64,000 nt of DNA from positions 1 to 64,000 of IMG/VR virus record IMGVR_UViG_3300046821_000134; one strand, written 5' to 3'. The stretch's first letter is position 1; every line of letters begins with the position of its first letter. The translations under genes and the position numbers were made by a program. The notes under the pieces were generated by a model. The model did not search any database. It saw only the letters and a list, made by a program, of their open reading frames with translations, and had not been told where the DNA came from. The DNA comes from a virus. This document shows, piece after piece, positions 4,282 to 54,739 of the stretch.

Positions 4282-4467
4282 CTATTTCTCAACAATAAAA
4301 CAACGAACACATGACTGCCCTTGCCCTGCAAAAGCTGTCAACACATCCTTGATGATGAATTCATTCGTTAGATGGTCTTCAGCATCATATTCTACAAGGC
4401 TTGTTGCTGGCCTACCATTCTTTTTCTTCTTATCCTTGTATTGCACCACCACTTGTTTTGTAATCAT
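4282..4467 (-). CDS. hypothetical protein
   Basis: AAGGAGG RBS. Confidence 0.65.
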   Translation of the reverse strand: MITKQVVVQYKDKKKKNGRPATSLVEYDAEDHLTNEFIIKDVLTAFAGQGQSCVRCFIVEK

Positions 4468-5022: not shown

Positions 5023-5889
5023 CTACAAATCAACAATCACAAAATTGGGATTAAAGTTTTCATATCCCACAGGATAGCACACCACCCTTGTCTTGTCAAT
5101 CTCGTAATCGCTAACATTGTGTGTATGCCCATGCACCCACAGAGGTAGATTATCCCTGTCAAACATCAATTCTGTTAGGTCTGACCAATAGTAGGCGCTG
5201 GAGGAGCTTGCCCTATAATGCTGCGAAATACTATTATAGCACGGAGCATGATGTGTTACAACCACGCATTTCTTATCTGCGGAGTTATCCAGCACATGCT
5301 TGATGTAATCCCGGCTACGTTGATGCTCTCGTAGCCACACGTTAGGCGTCAGCTTCTTGATGTACTGAAAATCATTCATTGCACGCGTGCTATCCATAAT
5401 AGCGAATGGGCTGTGCTTGTTCATGTCTGTCCACAGCGTAGCTCCTATGAAGCGTAAGCCTTCCAGATCAACGAAAGAGTTCTCAAGGATGTGCAGGTTG
5501 TACAGCCCTTGTTCCTGCTTCAAGCGTTCAGCCTTGGCGTGCCATGTGCCATAGAGGGTGTGCCATGACTCGTGATTTCCGATTACCACAACAGCGTGCT
5601 TGAACAAAGAGCAAACGTGCGTAATCCAAGAGCAGCTGTGAAAGCCAAACATCTTGTGCTCTGTCCAGAGGTCTCCTGCAAGAATAAGGATTCCTTCTGG
5701 ATCAGGCGGGGGAATGGACTTGAACATCCCTTGCAAGAATAGAGCATTGATGGCTCTCTGATGCCATACCCCTTCCTCCTTAGCTAGCTTGACAGCATTG
5801 CGAGTGGAAGGACGAGTGTATGTCCCTCCAAAGACGTGATGCACGATGGAATCAAGGTGTAGGTCAGAGGTGATGTATAGGCGTGGCAT
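5023..5889 (-). CDS. calcineurin-like metallophosphoesterase
   Basis: SDLH, AGD, GNHE, THHAP, HGHTH motifs. Confidence 0.92.
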   Translation of the reverse strand: MPRLYITSDLHLDSIVHHVFGGTYTRPSTRNAVKLAKEEGVWHQRAINALFLQGMFKSIPPPDPEGILILAGDLWTEHKMFGFHSCSWITHVCSLFKHAVVVIGNHESWHTLYGTWHAKAERLKQEQGLYNLHILENSFVDLEGLRFIGATLWTDMNKHSPFAIMDSTRAMNDFQYIKKLTPNVWLREHQRSRDYIKHVLDNSADKKCVVVTHHAPCYNSISQHYRASSSSAYYWSDLTELMFDRDNLPLWVHGHTHNVSDYEIDKTRVVCYPVGYENFNPNFVIVDL

Positions 5890-7592: not shown

Positions 7593-7867
7593 CGCTTATG
7601 TTACGGATACATCGTTTCCATGTACCCTCTGCATGTCCCCATGCAGGCCAGACTATATCACAACCCGCGAGGGGTTTCTCCCATTTCGAGGTCACTTGGC
7701 CCCTACGGCTTTCGCCTAGTCGTTGCACGTTCTCCACTGCCATTACTTTCGCATACAAACGGTACTCGTGTTTGTGGAGCTTCGCTCAGGATTGACTGTT
7801 CTAGTCTTCCCCTGAATTAGAGAGATTGTTCAAAAGCAATCGCTTGCTTAGGCCGCTAGTTTTGTTA
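7593..7867 (-). mobile_element. group I intron (275 nt, no ORF) splitting the catalytic Cys codon of nrdJ
   Basis: Removal joins AAC CCG T|GT GGA GAG CAG = NPCGEQ; 5' exon ends in U paired to G in P1 (CCGU|UA...UAGCGG); intron ends in G; P7 elements AACGACUA and GAUAUAGUC. Confidence 0.95.
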
Positions 7868-8813
7868 ACGGGTTTGTGGACTTTATATTTTCTTGGTACT
7901 TTGCAGGATTGTAGTAATTCGCCCGATCAAGGAACAACACTCCCGGTTCTGCACGATTGTATGTGGATTCCATCACAAGGTTCCACAGTTGAAGAACAGA
8001 AATTGTGTCATACACAACAACAGGATATCCTTTAGCTTTCCAATCCTTGATATTGCCATTCCATTTTGCTTTATACGACGGGTGCTCAGTATCCGGGAAC
8101 ACCAAATCCCATTTATCTAAGTCTGCAAACTTTACAGGGTCTTCTTTGAGTTTGTTCAATCGCTCCATAAACTCATCGGAGAAATTCACAGAGATGTTAA
8201 ACTTAGTTAGGCGCCCGTGTTGTTGCTTTGCAGTGATGAATTCTATGACATCCGGGTGCCAATCATCCAAGCAGCCCATCATGGCACCTTTGCGAATCTT
8301 ACCCTTGGCCTTGCTATTGCTCTTCGTTTTACCAGAGCCTGATGTGACAATCTCAGATGACTTATCAAATAACTCCATAAACTTCACAGCCCCCGGGGTA
8401 TCTACGCCGATCCCCTTGATATAAGCACCACGTGGGCGAATGTAAGAGAAGTTCTCGCCGTAGCCTCCTTCCGACGCCAGTGTTTTTGCCTGCCAGTCCA
8501 GCCGCTGCATAATGCCCTGCAGGGAGTCAATGTCGTCGACTGTGTCTGGTCCAACAAAACAGTTTGCAAGTGTTGTATTCTTGAAATCAGTGCCTGCGTT
8601 GCTATAGATACGCCCGCCTGTGGTAGATTTAAAATCTGCAAGCATGTCTCCAAACTTCTCAGTCCATTCTTGAACTTTCTCTGGTGTTTTCTCCACACTT
8701 GCAAGTGCTCTTGCTACACGAGACAGTGTATCATCGATAGTGACATCTTCATGAAACTTATACGTACTCTCCCAAACGTCTTTAGAAAAACTATCCTGAA
8801 ATTTTGTCATCAT
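7868..8813 (-). CDS. nrdJ: class II ribonucleotide reductase, exon 1
   Basis: GGRIYSNAG, NCFV, EGGYG.NFS.IRPRG, RKGAMM, HPDVIEFI, KFNISV, AEPGVLF, STNP. Confidence 0.93.
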
Positions 8814-47909: not shown

Positions 47910-48470
47910 TTACTTCTTGAGAGATTGCTTGATGATTTTCATCGTAAGGTTTTCTTCAGGGGCTTTATCAGCATCACCCGACACACCAACTTCTTTGAAC
48001 ATTGCGCTCTCTGCTTCCTTGGCAAAGGATGCCTTGAATCCAGATACGACAACGTCAAATGACTCACGCGGCAATTCACCGATAGCGGTAAAGGTAGTTT
48101 CGAAACCGGGATTATCCTTACCGATAACGTCCGCCAGCATCTCACGACGCTCGTTGAGTTCCTTCAGCTTGGCTTGCTCTTGGAGAGCGGCAGCTTCAGC
48201 TTCAGCCTTAGCAGCGAGGTCGGCATAGCCTTCCAGCTTGCTGTTCAGAGATGCCAGCAGGGCATCCTTTTCTGTTACTACACTGTTGAGCTGTTCCACT
48301 TGGGAAACCAGCTCAGCGAGTTGTTCTTGAAGGGGCTGCATCGCTGCAAGCTCCAACAGTTCTTCTTGTACTTCCTGTACAGCCTCAGCTACAACAGGAG
48401 CGTCCGCTACATTGATAGTGACATTGGTAGCTGATACGCCCTTGAGTGCCTTTTTCAGTGCATCAAGCAT
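47910..48470 (-). CDS. scaffolding protein
   Basis: Acidic coiled coil between protease and decoration genes. Confidence 0.75.
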   Translation of the reverse strand: MLDALKKALKGVSATNVTINVADAPVVAEAVQEVQEELLELAAMQPLQEQLAELVSQVEQLNSVVTEKDALLASLNSKLEGYADLAAKAEAEAAALQEQAKLKELNERREMLADVIGKDNPGFETTFTAIGELPRESFDVVVSGFKASFAKEAESAMFKEVGVSGDADKAPEENLTMKIIKQSLKK

Positions 48471-49302
48471 TGTTACTCCTTACATAGTCAAGAAATTCCC
48501 TTGGAGTCATAACCTTGTTTACAAGGCCAATCTCCAAAGCCTTTTCTGCGTGGAACGACTGAGCATCCAACGCTAAAATCGTTTCCACAGACAATCCTGT
48601 ATACATGGAAACATGCTCGGCAAACTGCATACCAAGACGGGATACGTCTTCTTGCACCTTAGCCAAAAACTTTTCTGAGAAGCTGCCATCTTCGTTGAAA
48701 GGAGACTTACCTGCCAGCGATGTAATCACCACCCGCTTGTACCCTTCCTTATCAAGAGCTTTGGAATCATCAAGTAGCGCAACAATACAGCCTACTGAGC
48801 CTGTAGTGCCGTCAGGAGAAGAAACAACTTCATCCATCATGCAAGCCCAAGCATACGCTGCAGAACAGGCCATCTCATCTACATATGCAACGAGCTTTAC
48901 GCCAGCTTCGTCTGCCATGCGCCTCACTTCATTAGCAGAAGTGAAACAGGCTTGTGCTGCACCGCCGGGGCTGCTGAACGAGAACACAATCTGTTTAGCA
49001 CCAGCATCAATTGCTTCGCCAACTTGTTCAATCAGCTCTGTGTAAGCCACGCCAACCTTGCCACACGCTGTGTATATTGGCTTGTACGAAAGGGCGCCTT
49101 CTACGTTGATGAAAGCTACCCCGTTAAGCACTTCCATATCTTCTTTGTCTGGCTTGTTCTCATCGTCTTCTACATCACGCATGAACGAAGGATCAGCCGT
49201 TCTATTCACAAGGTACTGTGCGATAGGGGCCAATGCTTCTGCTGTAATGAGTTGAGGATGAGCCAAGATTTGTTCAGTTAGCCTGAATAGTCTATGACTC
49301 AT
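48463..49302 (-). CDS. S49-family prohead protease
   Basis: SSPGG, ACSAAY, GSVG, A..A...GLV. Confidence 0.92.
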   Translation of the reverse strand: MSHRLFRLTEQILAHPQLITAEALAPIAQYLVNRTADPSFMRDVEDDENKPDKEDMEVLNGVAFINVEGALSYKPIYTACGKVGVAYTELIEQVGEAIDAGAKQIVFSFSSPGGAAQACFTSANEVRRMADEAGVKLVAYVDEMACSAAYAWACMMDEVVSSPDGTTGSVGCIVALLDDSKALDKEGYKRVVITSLAGKSPFNEDGSFSEKFLAKVQEDVSRLGMQFAEHVSMYTGLSVETILALDAQSFHAEKALEIGLVNKVMTPREFLDYVRSNNA

Positions 49303-50927: not shown

Positions 50928-53465
50928 TTAAGACGGGATAGGCCCTTCTCTTGTTAAAGAGATGCCTGAGAGGGATACGTTAGGAGAGGATTGATACGCT
51001 TTAGCGAGAATCTTCAAGGCGCTTGATGTAGCATCAACCTCGTCATCGTGAATCTTTCGCATAGACTCAGGGGTGCCTTTGAACATCTCAAGCGTTTCAA
51101 GCCACTCATCATTCCATGCCCCGACCACGATCTTCACTTTACCTGCTTCTGCAAGCTGGCAGAATGGGAGGAACCTTTGTAGCTTACCGCTCCAGCCACT
51201 CATCTTATCAACTTTGACGATAAGCCCTTCCTCAGAGAGAACTGTTACCATGTGGTTTGCCACGTATTTACCTGCTGCACCAGCGTCCTGTGGTACAACA
51301 ATAGGAACGTGTAACCCATCTCTAGTTGCCTGAGTGATGATGCGCTCAAGCACTGCATGAGGCTTCGCATGGAACTTGACCATATCAATCACGTAATACG
51401 TCCCAAACCTGTCACGCCCCATTAGCATTCCAACCGTGGCATCAGGATTACGATTAACCTCAGACTTCTCTGTTGCTGCCAAGTCGTAGGCTCTAACAAG
51501 GTCGGTATCCACCGGTACCTGATCCATTGTTATCAGATCGCACCAAGACCGGTTAAACATGTTCTGTCCAACATCGATATTAAGCCATGAGCCATGCAGG
51601 TATTTCAGTTGGTTGCGCTTAGGCTGTGCAAGGAGGCTTGGAAGGTAGGTGTTGTTGCGTGGAGGGAGTAGGTAGGGGTTGTCGTAGACCGTAGAAGGGA
51701 TAAATCTGAATGACTTAGCAATAAAGAGCTTACCTTTTGGCACGTCGCGTATCTGTGCTGCAGTAAGCCCCTTCCCTCTAATCATGCCGCGTGGGGCGCC
51801 ATGAATCTCAAAACACTCCTCTTCTGAGTCTGCCCACAAAACCTTGCCATCAAGAACAACCATCCAGCGAACCTTGTCTTCTGTTCCCGGCTTTGGCACG
51901 CCATCTTCGTCTAGGCAGTAATCTACCCACTCCCTTAGAAAGCTATTATGATTTGGGTTAGCTGTTAGGATAACTTGTTCTTTGTATTTTGAGTGGGCAC
52001 TACGAACCCGAGACAACAAGAATAAAATTACATCCAAAGACCAATCATCGCCGGCTTCGTCCACGCATAAACGGCTAGCTTGGAGGCCCTGGAGGCTACC
52101 AAGCACACTTGCATCTGGGATACCAAGGAACTGTATCTCGGCCTGAGATGGGAACGTCCAGATCAGTCCAGTCTTATTAAAGTCACCGCCAAAAGGTTGG
52201 TAGAATTGTTTAGATTCATTCACAATGCCACCGGGGCGTGTAAGCTCAGGTCTTGATTTACGCGCAATCACGATGCGCTCATTTGGATCATCCAAGTATG
52301 CCAACATCTTCATCAAAATTGTTGACGTATTGTGTGTCACAATGTAGTTTGTTGTAATATACAGCTTTTCGTCTCCTGATATACTAATACAAGACGCTTC
52401 TCCTTTTCCTATTGGCTCTATGCACTCAACGCGTAACCCCACGTGTTTGGATATTGTTCTGTCTTTTTTCGCAGGAAGTCTGAAAAGACTCCCTTGGTTC
52501 ATTCCCCTCACATACAGTTTATAAACAATGGAGCAAATATGCTTTACACCATCTTTGACGTAACTTCCCTGCTTGGTGGAGAGCTTTGCAGTGTACCCAA
52601 GTGAGTGAAGGATTTCCTTAACCTGATGAGCCATTCGTTCGGAGGTTGTGTCATAATATACGTTACCTCTTTTACATACATAGCCGTCTGTATCAAACAA
52701 CCCCTGTAGTAAGTCAAAACGATTCTTGATAGAGCCTAACATATATTCTTCAGGAATGAATTTGGTCTGAGAAAGGGTTCCTCTCAGGCCAAGGCGTTCC
52801 ATTTCAGAAAATGTGCCAAGAAGAGTTTTTGTAACAGATGTTGGTCTGCCCTCATTAAGAGTAAAGGCGCCGGGAGTAATCCCTTCCCGCTTTAGTTCTT
52901 CCCACACAAATTCACTACTGTTAGTTACAGCCGGGCTTCCTGTTTTTGGTATATGGCCGTCACCTAGTATAACCCCCATCGCATAAGGGGAGATAACGTG
53001 TTCTTTGTGTTCGGAATGTTGTACTGGCTTTATAAGAGGTATGATCGGAAGTCTTTTACGAATTCCTTTTGTCCCTTCGTATTTAGAGGTTACTTTCAAC
53101 ATTTCAAGCGTATTTGTAATCTTACTGTTAACTTGCCCGTCACCTGCCTCATGCCATTTCCATAGATGTTCTCCACAACAGTCTATGATTCTTCCATCTT
53201 GAAAACGAACACGGTATAAGTCAACAACCCCCTGAGGAAATACGCCGGTAACAGTCTCAACCGTGTTATCAGGAGTAATTACTTTGTCGCCAACCTTAAT
53301 ATCTTCAATATTTACGAACCCGTTTACAGTTAAAACTTTCTCTCCATGTCGAAGAGCTTTCCCGCCGCCAGCACCACCACCCACAAGGATAATGTCTTCT
53401 TGTGCTTCTAGCATCATTCTTTGCTTTACTGACGCCGGGCCGAACACCTTATTCTCAGCCATCAC
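50928..53465 (-). CDS. terL: terminase large subunit with intein
   Basis: Walker A GGGAGGGK|T, Walker B CVDEA, TANP, DNPYL, RAYDLAA, HDDEVDA. Confidence 0.95.
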   Translation of the reverse strand: MMAENKVFGPASVKQRMMLEAQEDIILVGGGAGGGKALRHGEKVLTVNGFVNIEDIKVGDKVITPDNTVETVTGVFPQGVVDLYRVRFQDGRIIDCCGEHLWKWHEAGDGQVNSKITNTLEMLKVTSKYEGTKGIRKRLPIIPLIKPVQHSEHKEHVISPYAMGVILGDGHIPKTGSPAVTNSSEFVWEELKREGITPGAFTLNEGRPTSVTKTLLGTFSEMERLGLRGTLSQTKFIPEEYMLGSIKNRFDLLQGLFDTDGYVCKRGNVYYDTTSERMAHQVKEILHSLGYTAKLSTKQGSYVKDGVKHICSIVYKLYVRGMNQGSLFRLPAKKDRTISKHVGLRVECIEPIGKGEASCISISGDEKLYITTNYIVTHNTSTILMKMLAYLDDPNERIVIARKSRPELTRPGGIVNESKQFYQPFGGDFNKTGLIWTFPSQAEIQFLGIPDASVLGSLQGLQASRLCVDEAGDDWSLDVILFLLSRVRSAHSKYKEQVILTANPNHNSFLREWVDYCLDEDGVPKPGTEDKVRWMVVLDGKVLWADSEEECFEIHGAPRGMIRGKGLTAAQIRDVPKGKLFIAKSFRFIPSTVYDNPYLLPPRNNTYLPSLLAQPKRNQLKYLHGSWLNIDVGQNMFNRSWCDLITMDQVPVDTDLVRAYDLAATEKSEVNRNPDATVGMLMGRDRFGTYYVIDMVKFHAKPHAVLERIITQATRDGLHVPIVVPQDAGAAGKYVANHMVTVLSEEGLIVKVDKMSGWSGKLQRFLPFCQLAEAGKVKIVVGAWNDEWLETLEMFKGTPESMRKIHDDEVDATSSALKILAKAYQSSPNVSLSGISLTREGPIPS
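52329..53357 (-). mobile_element. 343-aa LAGLIDADG intein, class 3 signature
   Basis: Starts with Ala (ALRHGEKV); block B EHLW; block F ASCISI; ends IVTHN|T; LAGLIDADG motifs MGVILGDG and LQGLFDTDG. Confidence 0.92.
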
Positions 53466-53698
53466 CCTTCCTCCAAATCAAACTTAAAATACATCCCCTT
53501 ATTGCTACTATTCACAGCAATGATGGGCAACTTCCTCGCATTGGCAATCAATGCCAATAGCTCAATAAATTCCTTAGAACTCTTCCCCACAACATCTACG
53601 CAATCCAATGAGAGAGAATCTAGCTCGCCGTCCTCATCAAGATAGGCCCAACGCAGGGAGTATTTCCCACGATAAGAAACTACACGAATGTTCTTCAC
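53462..53698 (-). CDS. hypothetical protein
   Basis: AAGGA RBS; overlaps terL start. Confidence 0.65.
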   Translation of the reverse strand: MKNIRVVSYRGKYSLRWAYLDEDGELDSLSLDCVDVVGKSSKEFIELLALIANARKLPIIAVNSSNKGMYFKFDLEEG

Positions 53699-53725
53699 TT
53701 ACATTTCCTTTACGAATAAATGGAA

Positions 53726-53759
53726 CAAAAATAACGCCCAAAGGATTTCTCCTTGGGCG
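53726..53759 (-). terminator. intrinsic terminator closing the large ncRNA
   Basis: CGCCCAAGGA-GAAA-TCCTTTGGGCG-TTATTTTTG. Confidence 0.85.
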
Positions 53760-54294
53760 CATTGAAACACTATATCGGAAAGGATAAGTGAGAGGAGAAA
53801 CTTAGAGATTATCTGTCCCAACGCATCTCACGCCGGGAGGGTGTTTGCTTCAACACCTAAGCTCCACTGTAAGCAACAGCAGAGGAATACGCGTAACTCT
53901 TTAGGAGAAGGGTTTTACGCATTGGTTGTGGGTGACCGACTCGTCAGCGGGGTGCTTCCCCAGACAGGCGTATAGTCGATTAGCTCAGTCTCGCATACAC
54001 GCAGTGCGAAACATAGTTACAGCGTCCTGTAACGATCCTCTTTTACCCACAAGGAAGTAGTCTATCCGAGGATGTCTTAACACTTGTGGGCTAGGACTTC
54101 CTGTTCTGACTGCTTCCTTGTAGGTGCTGGTTACTAATCCAGCGATAGGCTTTCGGGCTACCAGCTCCACTGTCCCGCCTGTGTCTTATTACGCATTTCA
54201 GGTCTTTGCGTACAACATCCCCGGAGGTCAAAGGAGGTAACAAATCCCTCCGGGGAACACATCACAATGTGTCTTTTCTCATCTCTCACTGTAT
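53727..54294 (-). ncRNA. candidate large ornate ncRNA (~570 nt)
   Basis: Consensus promoter and terminator; no credible ORF; 5' and 3' ends pair; many long helices. Confidence 0.7.
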
Positions 54295-54300
54295 ATAGAC

Positions 54301-54329
54301 ATTATATACCCGGGATGTGTCTTTGTCAA
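54301..54329 (-). promoter_or_regulatory. perfect-consensus sigma70 promoter
   Basis: TTGACA-17-TATAAT facing a non-coding region. Confidence 0.9.
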
Positions 54330-54337
54330 GCTATTTA

Positions 54338-54739
54338 TTAAACATTTTTCAGATGGTCAATGTCCAACACACCATCTCCTGTGGTAGCATCTTCTCCGTC
54401 AATGTTTTGAATAACACTTGGAGAGAATGTTACACGAGGCTTCCCATCTTCCTCTTCTGGAGTTATTGTCTTCATGCCAATACGGACAAGCTGTTTCTCT
54501 TGCAGTTCTGCTCTGACATTGGCAATACTAGCTGCAAGGTTATTCTTTGCACTCCTATCAATATTCTCTGACTGCAACGTAAGCACCTTAGTAATCAAAT
54601 CAGCCTTTATCTTGATATCAGCCTCAGGGTCTTGCAGGATTGCAATAGCAGCATTATAGGCCATCTTGGAGAGCTTATCAAGGTTCTTGATCAGCTTTTT
54701 CTGCTCTGCTGTGATGGCTTTTGCGTCAATTTCCTTCAT
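54338..54739 (-). CDS. putative terminase small subunit
   Basis: Helical 133-aa protein upstream of terL; call is positional only. Confidence 0.45.
   Translation of the reverse strand: MKEIDAKAITAEQKKLIKNLDKLSKMAYNAAIAILQDPEADIKIKADLITKVLTLQSENIDRSAKNNLAASIANVRAELQEKQLVRIGMKTITPEEEDGKPRVTFSPSVIQNIDGEDATTGDGVLDIDHLKNV

What the first reader, a model, noticed from the sequence alone, without database searches (positions are those of the whole stretch)
53770..54257. Anti-Shine-Dalgarno sequences displayed in loops of the large RNA
Seen: hairpin UCCCCGGAGG...CCUCCGGGGA (54256-54218) presents UUACCUCCUUUG, resembling the 16S rRNA 3' tail. Hairpin GCGUAA...UUACGC (53920-53891) presents CCCUUCUCCUAAAG. 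A third tract, UUAUCCUUUCC, precedes the terminator. The three tracts are complementary to the AGGAGG, AGGAGA and AAGGAU ribosome-binding-site variants. The first matches the scaffold-gene RBS (AAGGAG-UAACAA near 48470-48482) with one bulge; the third matches GAAAGGAUAA upstream of 21450. Inference: a multi-armed RNA that pairs with host or phage translation initiation regions, by analogy with C-rich-loop sRNAs. Such short matches can arise by chance.
Basis: partly seen in the sequence, partly recalled or inferred. Interest (0 to 1): 0.72.

Follow-up and report, generated by a model that had tools for sequence, protein, structure and literature searches.

The report
Conserved anti-Shine-Dalgarno loop in phage RNA
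A roughly 560-base non-coding RNA of an uncultured freshwater phage displays, on a stable hairpin, the same eight bases (CCUCCUUU) that ribosomes use to recognise mRNAs; this loop is kept unchanged in four related phage RNAs, so it is a real functional element that probably pairs with ribosome-binding sites, although its targets are unknown.

Summary
All three pyrimidine tracts are at the stated coordinates, inside a promoter-to-terminator RNA (54294-53725, minus strand) with no Rfam match.

- **Loop 1:** CCUCCUUU (54237-54230) is invariant in five related RNAs (window, L003, L063, L068, L004). Their stems all differ but still pair, so the loop is clearly under selection.
- **Loop 2:** the CCUUCNCC motif is kept in four RNAs, but it is probably half paired.
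- **Tract 3:** it is not conserved.

The RNA occupies a conserved "RNA island" between a 133-aa gene and the terminase genes. In sister phages this slot holds tRNAs and a 65-75-nt hairpin with a CCCUCCU apical loop. In five of those loci the loop is complementary (8-13 bp, with co-varying flanks) to the ribosome-binding site just downstream, ahead of homing-endonuclease-like genes. Such loops therefore do pair with Shine-Dalgarno sequences.

In the window no cis partner co-varies. The best reading, at about 0.4, is a trans-acting SD-pairing RNA similar to RNAIII. The rivals are a tertiary contact, a 16S-tail decoy, and cis control on read-through transcripts.

Earlier notes in this scan flagged this same stretch only; nothing like it was noted on other DNA.

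The parts
54301..54329 (-). Sigma-70-type promoter of the RNA (TTGACA, 17 nt, TATAAT). It starts a few bases after the stop codon of the upstream 133-aa gene.
   Evidence: 12 of 12 consensus matches. A homologous promoter sits at the same place, directly after the GTTAATAA stop context, in L003, L004, L007, L015, L017 and L048.
53725..54294 (-). Non-coding RNA of about 560-570 nt, from the inferred start to the terminator U-tail.
   Evidence: MFE -210 kcal/mol, z = -5.67 against shuffles. No Rfam family at gathering score or at E<=10. Homologues are L003:1640-2276, L063:4703-4235(-) and L068:2950-2280(-). Relatives in other samples change stems only in pair-preserving ways. The start is inferred from the promoter and was not mapped.
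54218..54256 (-). Hairpin 1: a 10-bp G+C-rich stem with a 19-nt loop.
   Evidence: The stem sequence differs in each of the five homologues but pairing is kept. A relative carries C to U at 54227, changing G-C to G-U.
54230..54237 (-). Anti-Shine-Dalgarno core CCUCCUUU in the loop of hairpin 1.
   Evidence: P(unpaired) 0.96. Invariant in the window, L003, L063, L068 and L004. No listed difference falls in the loop; one record each from two runs covers it.
53891..53920 (-). Hairpin 2 (GCGUAA/UUACGC stem) with the C/U-rich loop CCCUUCUCCU (53912-53903).
   Evidence: CCUUCNCC is kept in L003, L063 and L068. The L068 stem is AUGCAA/UUGCAU, 2 bp shorter on both strands. RNAalifold pairs CUUC with GAAG, so exposure is partial; P(unpaired) is 0.65.
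53777..53787 (-). Tract 3, UUAUCCUUUCC: a single-stranded linker between the closing helix and the terminator.
   Evidence: P(unpaired) 0.80. No counterpart in L003, L063 or L068. It is probably not a conserved functional site.
53788..53805 (-). 3' strand of the predicted closing helix (CUAAGUUUCUCCUCUCAC). It pairs with the purine-rich 5' end at 54273-54289.
   Evidence: MFE and centroid structures. This is another pyrimidine tract, but it is paired (P(unpaired) 0.04).
54273..54289 (-). 5' strand of the predicted closing helix (GUGAGAGAUGAGAAAAG).
   Evidence: In L068 the analogous 5' purine tract is a real-looking RBS (CUCAGGAGAA) that is the exact complement of that RNA's loop 2.
53725..53760 (-). 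Intrinsic terminator (10-bp stem, 7-nt loop, U-rich tail) that ends the RNA before the 78-aa ORF and terL.

Best explanation
Loop 1 of the large RNA is a genuine, selected, single-stranded copy of the ribosomal anti-Shine-Dalgarno sequence (CCUCCUUU), held on a stable 5'-proximal hairpin. The RNA belongs to a previously undescribed family of about 470-650 nt found in phages whose large terminase is distantly FelixO1-like. It is made from a strong host-type promoter in the RNA/tRNA island just upstream of the terminase genes.

The loop most likely works by base-pairing with GGAGG-type purine tracts, that is, with ribosome-binding sites. The C-rich tip of hairpin 2 probably does so to a lesser extent. 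In the window the RNA ends at its own terminator and no neighbouring RBS co-varies with the loop. The pairing is therefore most likely in trans: the RNA competes with 30S subunits for strong SD sequences and so damps or times translation, as the C-rich loops of S. aureus RNAIII, RsaE and RoxS do.

Shown here: the RNA is a discrete gene with homologues. The loop is exposed in the predicted fold and is invariant while the stems co-vary. Sister hairpins pair with adjacent RBSs according to covariation.

Inferred: expression, action in trans, the identity of the targets and the effect on translation.
For: 1. Discrete RNA gene: consensus promoter and terminator, z = -5.67, no Rfam match.
2. The five homologous RNAs keep CCUCCUUU in the loop. 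The stems are UCCCCGGAGG/CCUCCGGGGA (window), UUUCAGCCGG/CCGGCUGAGA (L003), CACCCGAGG/CCUCGGGUG (L063), CAUCCGG/CCAGAUG (L068) and UACAAGUA/UACUUGUA (L004).
3. The loop is unpaired with P = 0.96. L063 contains no GGAG at all and L004 only one, so no internal partner exists there.
4. In loci recovered through the large terminase, hairpins presenting CCUCC in a loop occur 30 times on the gene strand and 3 times on the other strand. The 75-nt type has 92.6% paired cells and 9 of 13 pairs with compensatory change.
5. In L022, L046, L049, L031 and L018 the loop is complementary over 8-13 bp to the RBS 33-45 nt downstream, with co-varying flanks (for example AUCAACCCUCCAA with UUGGAGGGUUGAU in L018). 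Cognate pairs average -22.5 kcal/mol and non-cognate pairs -18.9; 6 of 120 permutations do as well.
6. The phage relies on strong SD sequences: 67 of 80 genes of at least 100 aa carry a GGAG, GAGG or AGGA core (start sites were chosen partly by SD score, so this count is biased upward).
7. Relatives from wastewater and bioreactor samples show pair-preserving changes in stems and no listed difference in loop 1.
Against: - No target can be named. Complementarity of the real loops to the phage's 130 RBS windows is no better than that of flank-shuffled loops.
- Loop 1 does not co-vary with the RBS of the small ORF or of terL in the window, L003, L063, L004 or L068.
- The phage's own genes use the SD sequences that a general SD-binder would also block, so the benefit is unclear.
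- Only five family members are known, and L003, L063 and L068 are close to one another in parts.
- Expression is not shown. The RNA-library evidence consists of contigs only.
- The host, and therefore its 16S 3' tail, is unknown.
Confidence: 0.4

Rival explanations
1. The pyrimidine loops are tertiary or quaternary contacts of a large, ornate, self-assembling phage RNA of the ROOL/GOLLD kind. They are conserved because they dock onto another part of the same RNA, or onto a neighbouring copy, and not onto mRNAs.
For: The RNA has the size (about 560 nt), the strong fold and the phage tRNA-island location that characterise ROOL and GOLLD (PMC12286853, read). It includes a long 17-bp helix with a variable tip that is replaced in one relative and a conserved GNRA-type CGAAAG hairpin. 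In L068, loop 2 is the exact 10-nt complement of the RNA's own 5' segment.
Against: There is no match to the ROOL or GOLLD models even at E<=10. L063 has no GGAG anywhere, so loop 1 cannot find a Watson-Crick partner inside that RNA or in a second copy of it. C/U-rich loops cannot kiss each other. The same motif also occurs on simple 65-75-nt hairpins that have no large RNA around them.
Confidence: 0.17
2. Loop 1 is a decoy copy of the 16S rRNA 3' tail. It titrates a protein that recognises or cleaves that tail, such as an anti-SD-cutting toxin or defence nuclease, or a ribosome factor. The neighbouring phage tRNAs are thought to back up tRNAs attacked by host defences, and the loop would be a parallel case.
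For: The invariant 8-mer is CCUCCUUU, which from general knowledge is the 16S tail sequence of many bacteria; the window version, ACCUCCUUU, extends the match. The partner seems to be constant, because the loop does not co-vary with anything phage-specific. In sister phages the element sits among tRNA genes. It is driven by a strong host-type promoter.
Against: This is purely inferential, since no candidate protein was identified here. The sister 75-nt hairpins carry CCCUCCUC, which departs from the 16S tail after CCUCCU. Bases upstream of the core match the 16S tail poorly. The host is unknown.
Confidence: 0.12
3. The loops act in cis on transcripts that read through the terminator. They sequester the RBS of the 78-aa ORF or of terL, so that transcripts from the early promoter do not yield terminase. 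This would resemble the T4 scheme for late genes and homing endonucleases.
For: The sister hairpins do exactly this for the ORF immediately downstream. The scheme is established for T4 I-TevI, segB, mobE, soc and e (PMC2988022, read). In the window, loop 2 can form 13 pairs with one mismatch with the terL RBS (-16.8 kcal/mol, third best of 130 genes). The L003 loop 1 pairs with its terL RBS GGGAGGGG at -22.7 kcal/mol.
Against: A strong terminator separates the RNA from these genes. Which loop matches best differs between genomes, and there is no consistent covariation. Window loop 1 shares only the 5-bp core with the terL RBS. The flank-shuffle control shows that such energies are expected by chance.
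Confidence: 0.13
4. The resemblance to the anti-SD is incidental. The loops are simply pyrimidine-rich unpaired regions of a structured RNA, or binding sites for a pyrimidine-binding protein such as ribosomal protein S1, with no base-pairing role.
For: Within the window alone the enrichment is modest (CCUCC P = 0.037). Tract 3 is not conserved. Weaker hairpins with CU-rich loops arise about 10 times per strand in 80 kb.
Against: An 8-mer stays invariant across five RNAs whose stems have all changed. There is a 30-to-3 strand bias among related loci. Covariation supports SD pairing in five sister loci.
Confidence: 0.08

Closest known systems
S. aureus RNAIII and the C-rich-loop sRNAs of Firmicutes (RsaE/RoxS, FsrA)
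   Same: A multi-hairpin RNA (RNAIII is 514 nt) that exposes C-rich sequences in hairpin loops. Those loops pair with the Shine-Dalgarno regions of several mRNAs and block initiation (general knowledge). The window RNA is of similar size and exposes CCUCCUUU and a C-rich second loop.
   Different: There is no sequence or covariance-model similarity. The RNA is phage-encoded. The loop is a full 8-nt copy of the ribosomal anti-SD rather than a UCCC motif. No target could be identified.
RBS-sequestering hairpins of T4-type phages (I-TevI, I-TevII/III, segB, mobE, soc, e; also the seg43(25) hairpin of Aeromonas phage 25)
   Same: A cis RNA structure occludes the RBS of homing-endonuclease and late genes (PMC2988022). 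The sister loci L022, L046, L049, L031 and L018 have a stable hairpin directly upstream of the RBS of homing-endonuclease-like ORFs. This is the arrangement noted, without an explanation, for seg43(25).
   Different: In the sister loci the RBS pairs with the loop of the hairpin (a pseudoknot) and is not buried in the stem. In the window there is no adjacent complementary RBS, and the RNA has its own terminator.
ROOL and GOLLD large ornate RNAs
   Same: Large (about 580 to over 800 nt), highly structured, of unknown function, and encoded in phages and prophages, often near tRNA islands (PMC12286853). The window RNA occupies the tRNA-island slot of its phage group, and in L003 and L068 tRNA genes follow it directly, after a tRNA-like element.
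   Different: There is no hit to RF03087 or RF01998, even with permissive thresholds. The sequence and helices are different. Multimerisation was not tested.
3' tail of 16S rRNA (anti-SD)
   Same: The core is identical: CCUCCUUU, and ACCUCCUUU in the window.
   Different: It is presented in a closed hairpin loop rather than as a free 3' end. The flanking bases differ. It is not part of a ribosome.

Membership tests
ROOL (RF03087) / GOLLD (RF01998) | Match to the family covariance model | tested here: not met
   cmscan of the whole window at gathering score and of 53600-54450 at E<=10 with permissive filters lists neither family.
ROOL (RF03087) / GOLLD (RF01998) | Phage or prophage location near tRNA genes, and a length of about 500-800 nt | tested here: met
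   The genome is a phage genome. The same slot holds tRNA arrays in sister phages, and tRNA genes follow the RNA in L003 (ARAGORN) and in L068 (by reading). The RNA is about 560 nt.
ROOL (RF03087) / GOLLD (RF01998) | Homo-oligomeric nanocage | not testable with these tools
   This needs cryo-EM or biophysics.
RNAIII-like / C-rich-loop SD-targeting sRNAs | C-rich sequence exposed in hairpin loops | tested here: met
   P(unpaired) is 0.96 for CCUCCUUU and 0.65 for loop 2. The loop is conserved while the stems co-vary.
RNAIII-like / C-rich-loop SD-targeting sRNAs | Homology to a described family (RNAIII, RsaE and others in Rfam) | tested here: not met
   No Rfam match.
RNAIII-like / C-rich-loop SD-targeting sRNAs | Specific pairing with the SD regions of target mRNAs | tested here: inconclusive
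   Every strong SD is complementary to the core. Extended complementarity is not above the flank-shuffled controls. Host mRNAs are unknown.
Cis RBS-sequestering hairpin (T4 I-TevI/segB/mobE type) | Complementarity to the RBS of the gene immediately downstream on the same transcript | tested here: not met
   In the window a terminator intervenes, and the small-ORF RBS pairs at only -8.5 kcal/mol with loop 1. The feature is met in the sister loci L022, L046, L049, L031 and L018.
Cis RBS-sequestering hairpin (T4 I-TevI/segB/mobE type) | A late promoter placed so that late transcripts lack the inhibitory sequence | not tested
   The late-promoter consensus of this phage group is unknown.
75-nt anti-SD hairpin of sister phages (model R1, built here) | Match to the covariance model built from 8 hairpins | tested here: not met
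   cmsearch with R1 finds the 8 seeds plus L018 (E = 0.003) and L030 (E = 0.005), but nothing in the window. The relationship to window hairpin 1 rests on position and motif only.

The most novel reading that the evidence does not exclude
The RNA/tRNA island of this phage group is a translation-apparatus counter-measure cassette. Besides tRNAs, it supplies an abundant, nuclease-resistant copy of the 16S rRNA anti-SD tail, carried either on a 65-75-nt hairpin or on a new 470-650-nt ornate RNA. This copy acts as a decoy for host factors or defence toxins that bind or cut the anti-SD, or as a global competitor that re-programmes which SD-led mRNAs are translated. On this reading the large RNA would be a third class of large phage tRNA-island RNA, beside ROOL and GOLLD, and the first with a readable functional site.
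Probability: 0.15. Interest if true: 0.9.

Novelty: new variant of a known kind. Interest (0 to 1): 0.66.

Why it matters
Large structured phage RNAs near tRNA islands (ROOL, GOLLD) have no known function. This RNA sits in the same kind of place, belongs to no described family, and carries one feature whose chemistry can be read directly: an invariant, exposed anti-Shine-Dalgarno octamer. That gives a directly testable hypothesis, competition for or mimicry of the SD/anti-SD interaction, for at least one such RNA.

The sister loci also supply a natural series. The same kind of loop is either free next to tRNAs, or locked in a pseudoknot with the RBS of a homing-endonuclease-like gene. This extends the T4 RBS-sequestration scheme to a loop-RBS pseudoknot and may explain hairpins of the seg43(25) type. 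If the trans or decoy role holds, it would be a new way for a phage to interfere with translation initiation.

Tried and rejected
- **Rfam.** Searched at gathering score on the window and on 11 loci, and at E<=10 on the region. The only hits were a group I intron, tRNAs and sub-threshold noise (ylbH, VrrA).
- **BLASTN against 50,697 phage records.** Neither the RNA nor an L017 hairpin-tRNA segment gave a match.
- **The search for related loci with the two flanking small proteins.** No relatives.
- **Pattern scans.** GATAGANTNCTTNCTTGTGGG found only the L003 contig. AATGCGTAAANNCCTTCNCC added L063 plus two coding-region chance hits, L060 and L062. The single metagenome scan returned L063 again plus three unrelated hits, L064-L066.
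- **Cis-target hypothesis for loop 1.** No covariation with the small-ORF or terL RBS in five genomes.
Not above flank-shuffled controls.
- **A small ORF spanning the 75-nt hairpins.** This was considered because several end at the UGA of the conserved GUUGAG. It was rejected because the reading frame relative to the CCUCC motif differs between L015/L017 and L035, and L017 has upstream stops (by reading the sequences).
- **An intramolecular partner for loop 1.** None is conserved, and L063 lacks GGAG.
- **Model R1 against the window.** No hit.
- **Read laying.** The RNA-library runs are contigs only, so they show neither transcription nor ends. Parts without cover are not interpreted.

Full report
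**1. What is at the coordinates**

Read on the minus strand, the region between the 133-aa ORF (54739-54338) and the 78-aa ORF (53698-53462) is non-coding. It begins with a perfect sigma-70-type promoter, TTGACA-17-TATAAT, at 54329-54301. It ends with an intrinsic terminator at 53760-53734 followed by a U-tail. The RNA between them, about 560 nt, folds to -210 kcal/mol, with z = -5.67 against dinucleotide shuffles.

Rfam 15 has no match for it, either at gathering score or at E<=10 with permissive filters. It is therefore not ROOL, GOLLD, a group I or II intron, RNase P RNA, tmRNA or 6S RNA.

The genome is an 80-kb IMG/VR phage record with direct terminal repeats. The large terminase lies just downstream. 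It carries an intein and is 33-35% identical to the terminases of FelixO1-like phages.

**2. The observation**

- Hairpin 1 spans 54256-54218, a 10-bp stem with a 19-nt loop containing UUACCUCCUUUG.
- Hairpin 2 spans 53920-53891 and carries CCCUUCUCCU.
- Tract 3, UUAUCCUUUCC, lies at 53787-53777.

Their mean probabilities of being unpaired are 0.96, 0.65 and 0.80. CCUCC occurs 3 times against 0.71 expected (P = 0.037), and pyrimidine runs of 7 or more occur 7 times against 2.3 expected. Hairpin 1 is the only hairpin on its own strand, and one of the two most stable local folds in the whole genome, that shows CCUCC in a loop. This would be suggestive at best if the window were the only evidence.

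**3. Homologues**

I therefore aligned terminase relatives and fetched 57 viral loci.
- nhmmer found a full-length homologue of the RNA in L003 (E = 1e-6).
- Pattern scans added L063 (identical to L067) and L068.
- L004, whose terL is 59% identical, has a shorter, A+U-rich RNA in the same slot.

All five start at a homologous promoter placed directly after the stop codon of the upstream gene.

| RNA | Hairpin 1 stem | Loop |
|---|---|---|
| window | UCCCCGGAGG / CCUCCGGGGA | GAUUUGUUACCUCCUUUGA |
| L003 | UUUCAGCCGG / CCGGCUGAGA | GAGUUUCCCCUCCUUUCGA |
| L063 | CACCCGAGG / CCUCGGGUG | AAGUUUCCCUCCUUUCGG |
| L068 | CAUCCGG / CCAGAUG | GAGUUUCCUCCUUUCGA |
| L004 | UACAAGUA / UACUUGUA | CCCCUCCUU |

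Counting outward from the loop, stem positions 3 to 6 each show several different Watson-Crick pairs, while CCUCCUUU never changes. This is the signature of a loop sequence under selection on a stem that only needs to pair.

Hairpin 2 is kept in four RNAs with CCUUCNCC. In L068 the stem is AUGCAA/UUGCAU, two pairs shorter on both strands. RNAalifold pairs CUUC with GAAG inside this loop, so only a short and variable C-rich tip is exposed. Tract 3 has no counterpart in the other RNAs.

Near-identical relatives in wastewater and bioreactor runs carry substitutions that keep the pairs:
- RNA G to A at 53865, changing U-G to U-A.
- RNA A to G at 53868, changing U-A to U-G.
- RNA C to U at 54227, changing G-C to G-U.

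No listed difference falls in loop 1; one record each from two runs covers it. The tip of the long helix (54056-54116) is replaced in one relative.

**4. The wider context**

The slot between the upstream gene and the small ORF plus terL is an RNA island. In sister phages it holds 1 to 9 tRNA genes. In L003 and L068 tRNA genes follow the large RNA, after a tRNA-like element.

Across the loci, stable hairpins presenting CCUCC in a loop occur 30 times on the gene strand and 3 times on the other strand. There are three types.

- **Type 1** (L007, L015, L017, L035, L043, L048, L052, L054 and L030). This is a 65-75-nt hairpin with apical loop C(C)CCUCCU, lying 4-46 nt (mostly under 20 nt) before a tRNA, or 10 nt after one in L030. 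Its lower stem has 92.6% paired cells against 35-53% when the partners are slid, and 9 of 13 pairs show compensatory change. A conserved U-G pair shows that the structure is read on the RNA strand.
- **Type 2** (L022, L046, L049, L031, L018). This is a similar hairpin whose loop is complementary to the RBS lying 33-45 nt downstream, just past the 3' arm:
  - L022: 8 bp.
  - L046 and L049: 12 bp plus one bulged C.
  - L031: 10 bp, where a U-to-C change in the loop is matched by an A-to-G change in the RBS.
  - L018: 13 perfect pairs, with entirely different flanks on both sides.

  Cognate pairs average -22.5 kcal/mol against -18.9 for non-cognate pairs, and 6 of 120 permutations do as well. 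L022, L046 and L049 are nearly the same sequence, so the independent evidence rests on L018 and L031. The ORFs that follow look like free-standing homing endonucleases (AP2, DUF723 and DUF4379 zinc-finger repeats; weak Pfam hits). This resembles the T4 scheme of RBS sequestration for endonuclease and late genes (PMC2988022), except that the RBS pairs with the loop and forms a pseudoknot.
- **Type 3** (L032, L033, L038). One hairpin displays three unpaired CU-rich tracts: UUUCUCCUU, UUCCUCCUCCU and UUCUCCU.

These comparisons support SD-type pairing for such loops, by covariation in L018 and L031.

**5. Does the window loop have a partner?**

The phage uses strong SD sequences: 67 of 80 larger genes have a GGAG, GAGG or AGGA core. 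My start calls favoured SD sequences, so the count is biased upward.

I paired each loop with 130 RBS windows. As controls I kept the core and shuffled the flanks. The real loops are not better than the controls:
- Loop 1: minimum -17.5 against a control mean of -19.0 (P = 0.80).
- Loop 2: P = 0.31.
- Tract 3: P = 0.96.

The scaffold-gene and 21450 matches are therefore what chance provides once a CU-rich core faces purine-rich RBSs. Loop 1 does not co-vary with the RBS of the small ORF or of terL in any of the five genomes. Loop 2 can form 13 pairs with the window terL RBS, the third best of 130 genes, but the equivalent pairing is not kept in L003.

No conserved internal partner exists either, because L063 has no GGAG at all. 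The invariance of the octamer, together with the absence of any co-varying phage sequence, points to a constant partner. That partner would be either the SD consensus itself or something that recognises the 16S tail.

**6. Most likely mechanism and rivals**

I rate a trans-acting SD-pairing role as the most likely explanation (about 0.4). Strong early transcription would yield a stable RNA whose loop competes with 30S subunits for AAAGGAGG-type sites, as the C-rich loops of RNAIII, RsaE and RoxS do (general knowledge).

The rivals are:
- A tertiary or quaternary contact in a ROOL/GOLLD-like ornate RNA (0.17). The location and size fit (PMC12286853), but there is no model match and no complementary partner.
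- Cis control of the small ORF or terL on read-through transcripts (0.13).
- A 16S-tail decoy for a host protein or nuclease (0.12).
- Coincidence, or protein binding to pyrimidine-rich RNA (0.08).

Nothing here shows expression. The RNA-library hits are contigs.

**7. Novelty**

The mechanism class is known: C-rich loops against SD sequences, and RBS sequestration in phages. Three things are new:
- A large phage RNA family absent from Rfam that sits in the tRNA-island slot.
- An exact, invariant anti-SD octamer as its most conserved exposed element.
- The family of anti-SD hairpins in sister phages, including the loop-RBS pseudoknot before homing-endonuclease-like genes.

I file the finding as a new variant of a known kind, with interest 0.66. 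The scan's earlier notes cover only this same stretch.

Noticed in passing
window 7629-7877 (-): Group I intron (Rfam RF00028, 64 bits, E = 6e-14). Group I introns also lie in or near the terL genes of L003, L004, L043 and L048.
   Followed up: no
window 50928-53465 (-): The large terminase carries an intein with Hint and LAGLIDADG homing-endonuclease domains (Pfam). Intein-containing and intein-free relatives both occur.
   Followed up: partly
L068 2927-2918 and 2320-2311 (-): Near the 5' end of the L068 RNA there is a 28-codon ORF with a good RBS, CUCAGGAGAA. This RBS is the exact 10-nt complement of that RNA's loop 2 (UUCUCCUGAG). Apart from the long helix, it is the only other exact complement of 10 nt or more in the 670-nt RNA. 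Loop 2 may close the RNA or sequester this RBS.
   Followed up: partly
L003 2277-2350; L063 about 4232-4160 (-); L068 about 2300-2230 (-): A tRNA-like element follows the large RNA. It has a 7-bp acceptor-like stem and a T-arm-like hairpin, but ARAGORN did not call it in L003, the only one of the three scanned. In L003 and L068 genuine tRNA genes come next. It could direct RNase P processing of the 3' end of the large RNA.
   Followed up: no
L003 2523-2550; L004 3288-3310; L047 1905-1930; L063 about 4140-4115 (-); L068 downstream of the tRNAs: A conserved motif, ACAGAAGCCUG-N-CAGGACA, followed by a terminator-like hairpin, lies just upstream of the small ORF that precedes terL. It is absent from the window.
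   Followed up: no
L018 5037-5060: The RBS that is sequestered by the hairpin loop serves a 7-codon mini-ORF (MQQLNLF). Its stop overlaps the RBS of the 190-aa homing-endonuclease-like ORF, which suggests translational coupling.
   Followed up: no
L033 about 5405-5480; L032 about 1020-1100; L038 about 4320-4400: A long hairpin displays three unpaired CU-rich tracts, two in internal loops and one in the apical loop (UUCCUCCUCCU). This is a third architecture that shows SD-complementary sequences upstream of terL.
   Followed up: no
L066 240-420: An unrelated, G+C-rich metagenome contig has a terminator-ended non-coding stretch. It contains the hairpin GCGUAAAAGUCUUCCCCCGACUGUUACGC and a CUCCUCCC tract, and may be a bacterial C-rich-loop sRNA.
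   Followed up: no
window 54056-54116 (-): In one wastewater relative, the tip of the long 17-bp helix of the RNA is replaced by 65 other bases. Several contigs also break inside the RNA at 53801-53815 and 53931. The RNA island appears to be mosaic among close relatives.
   Followed up: partly
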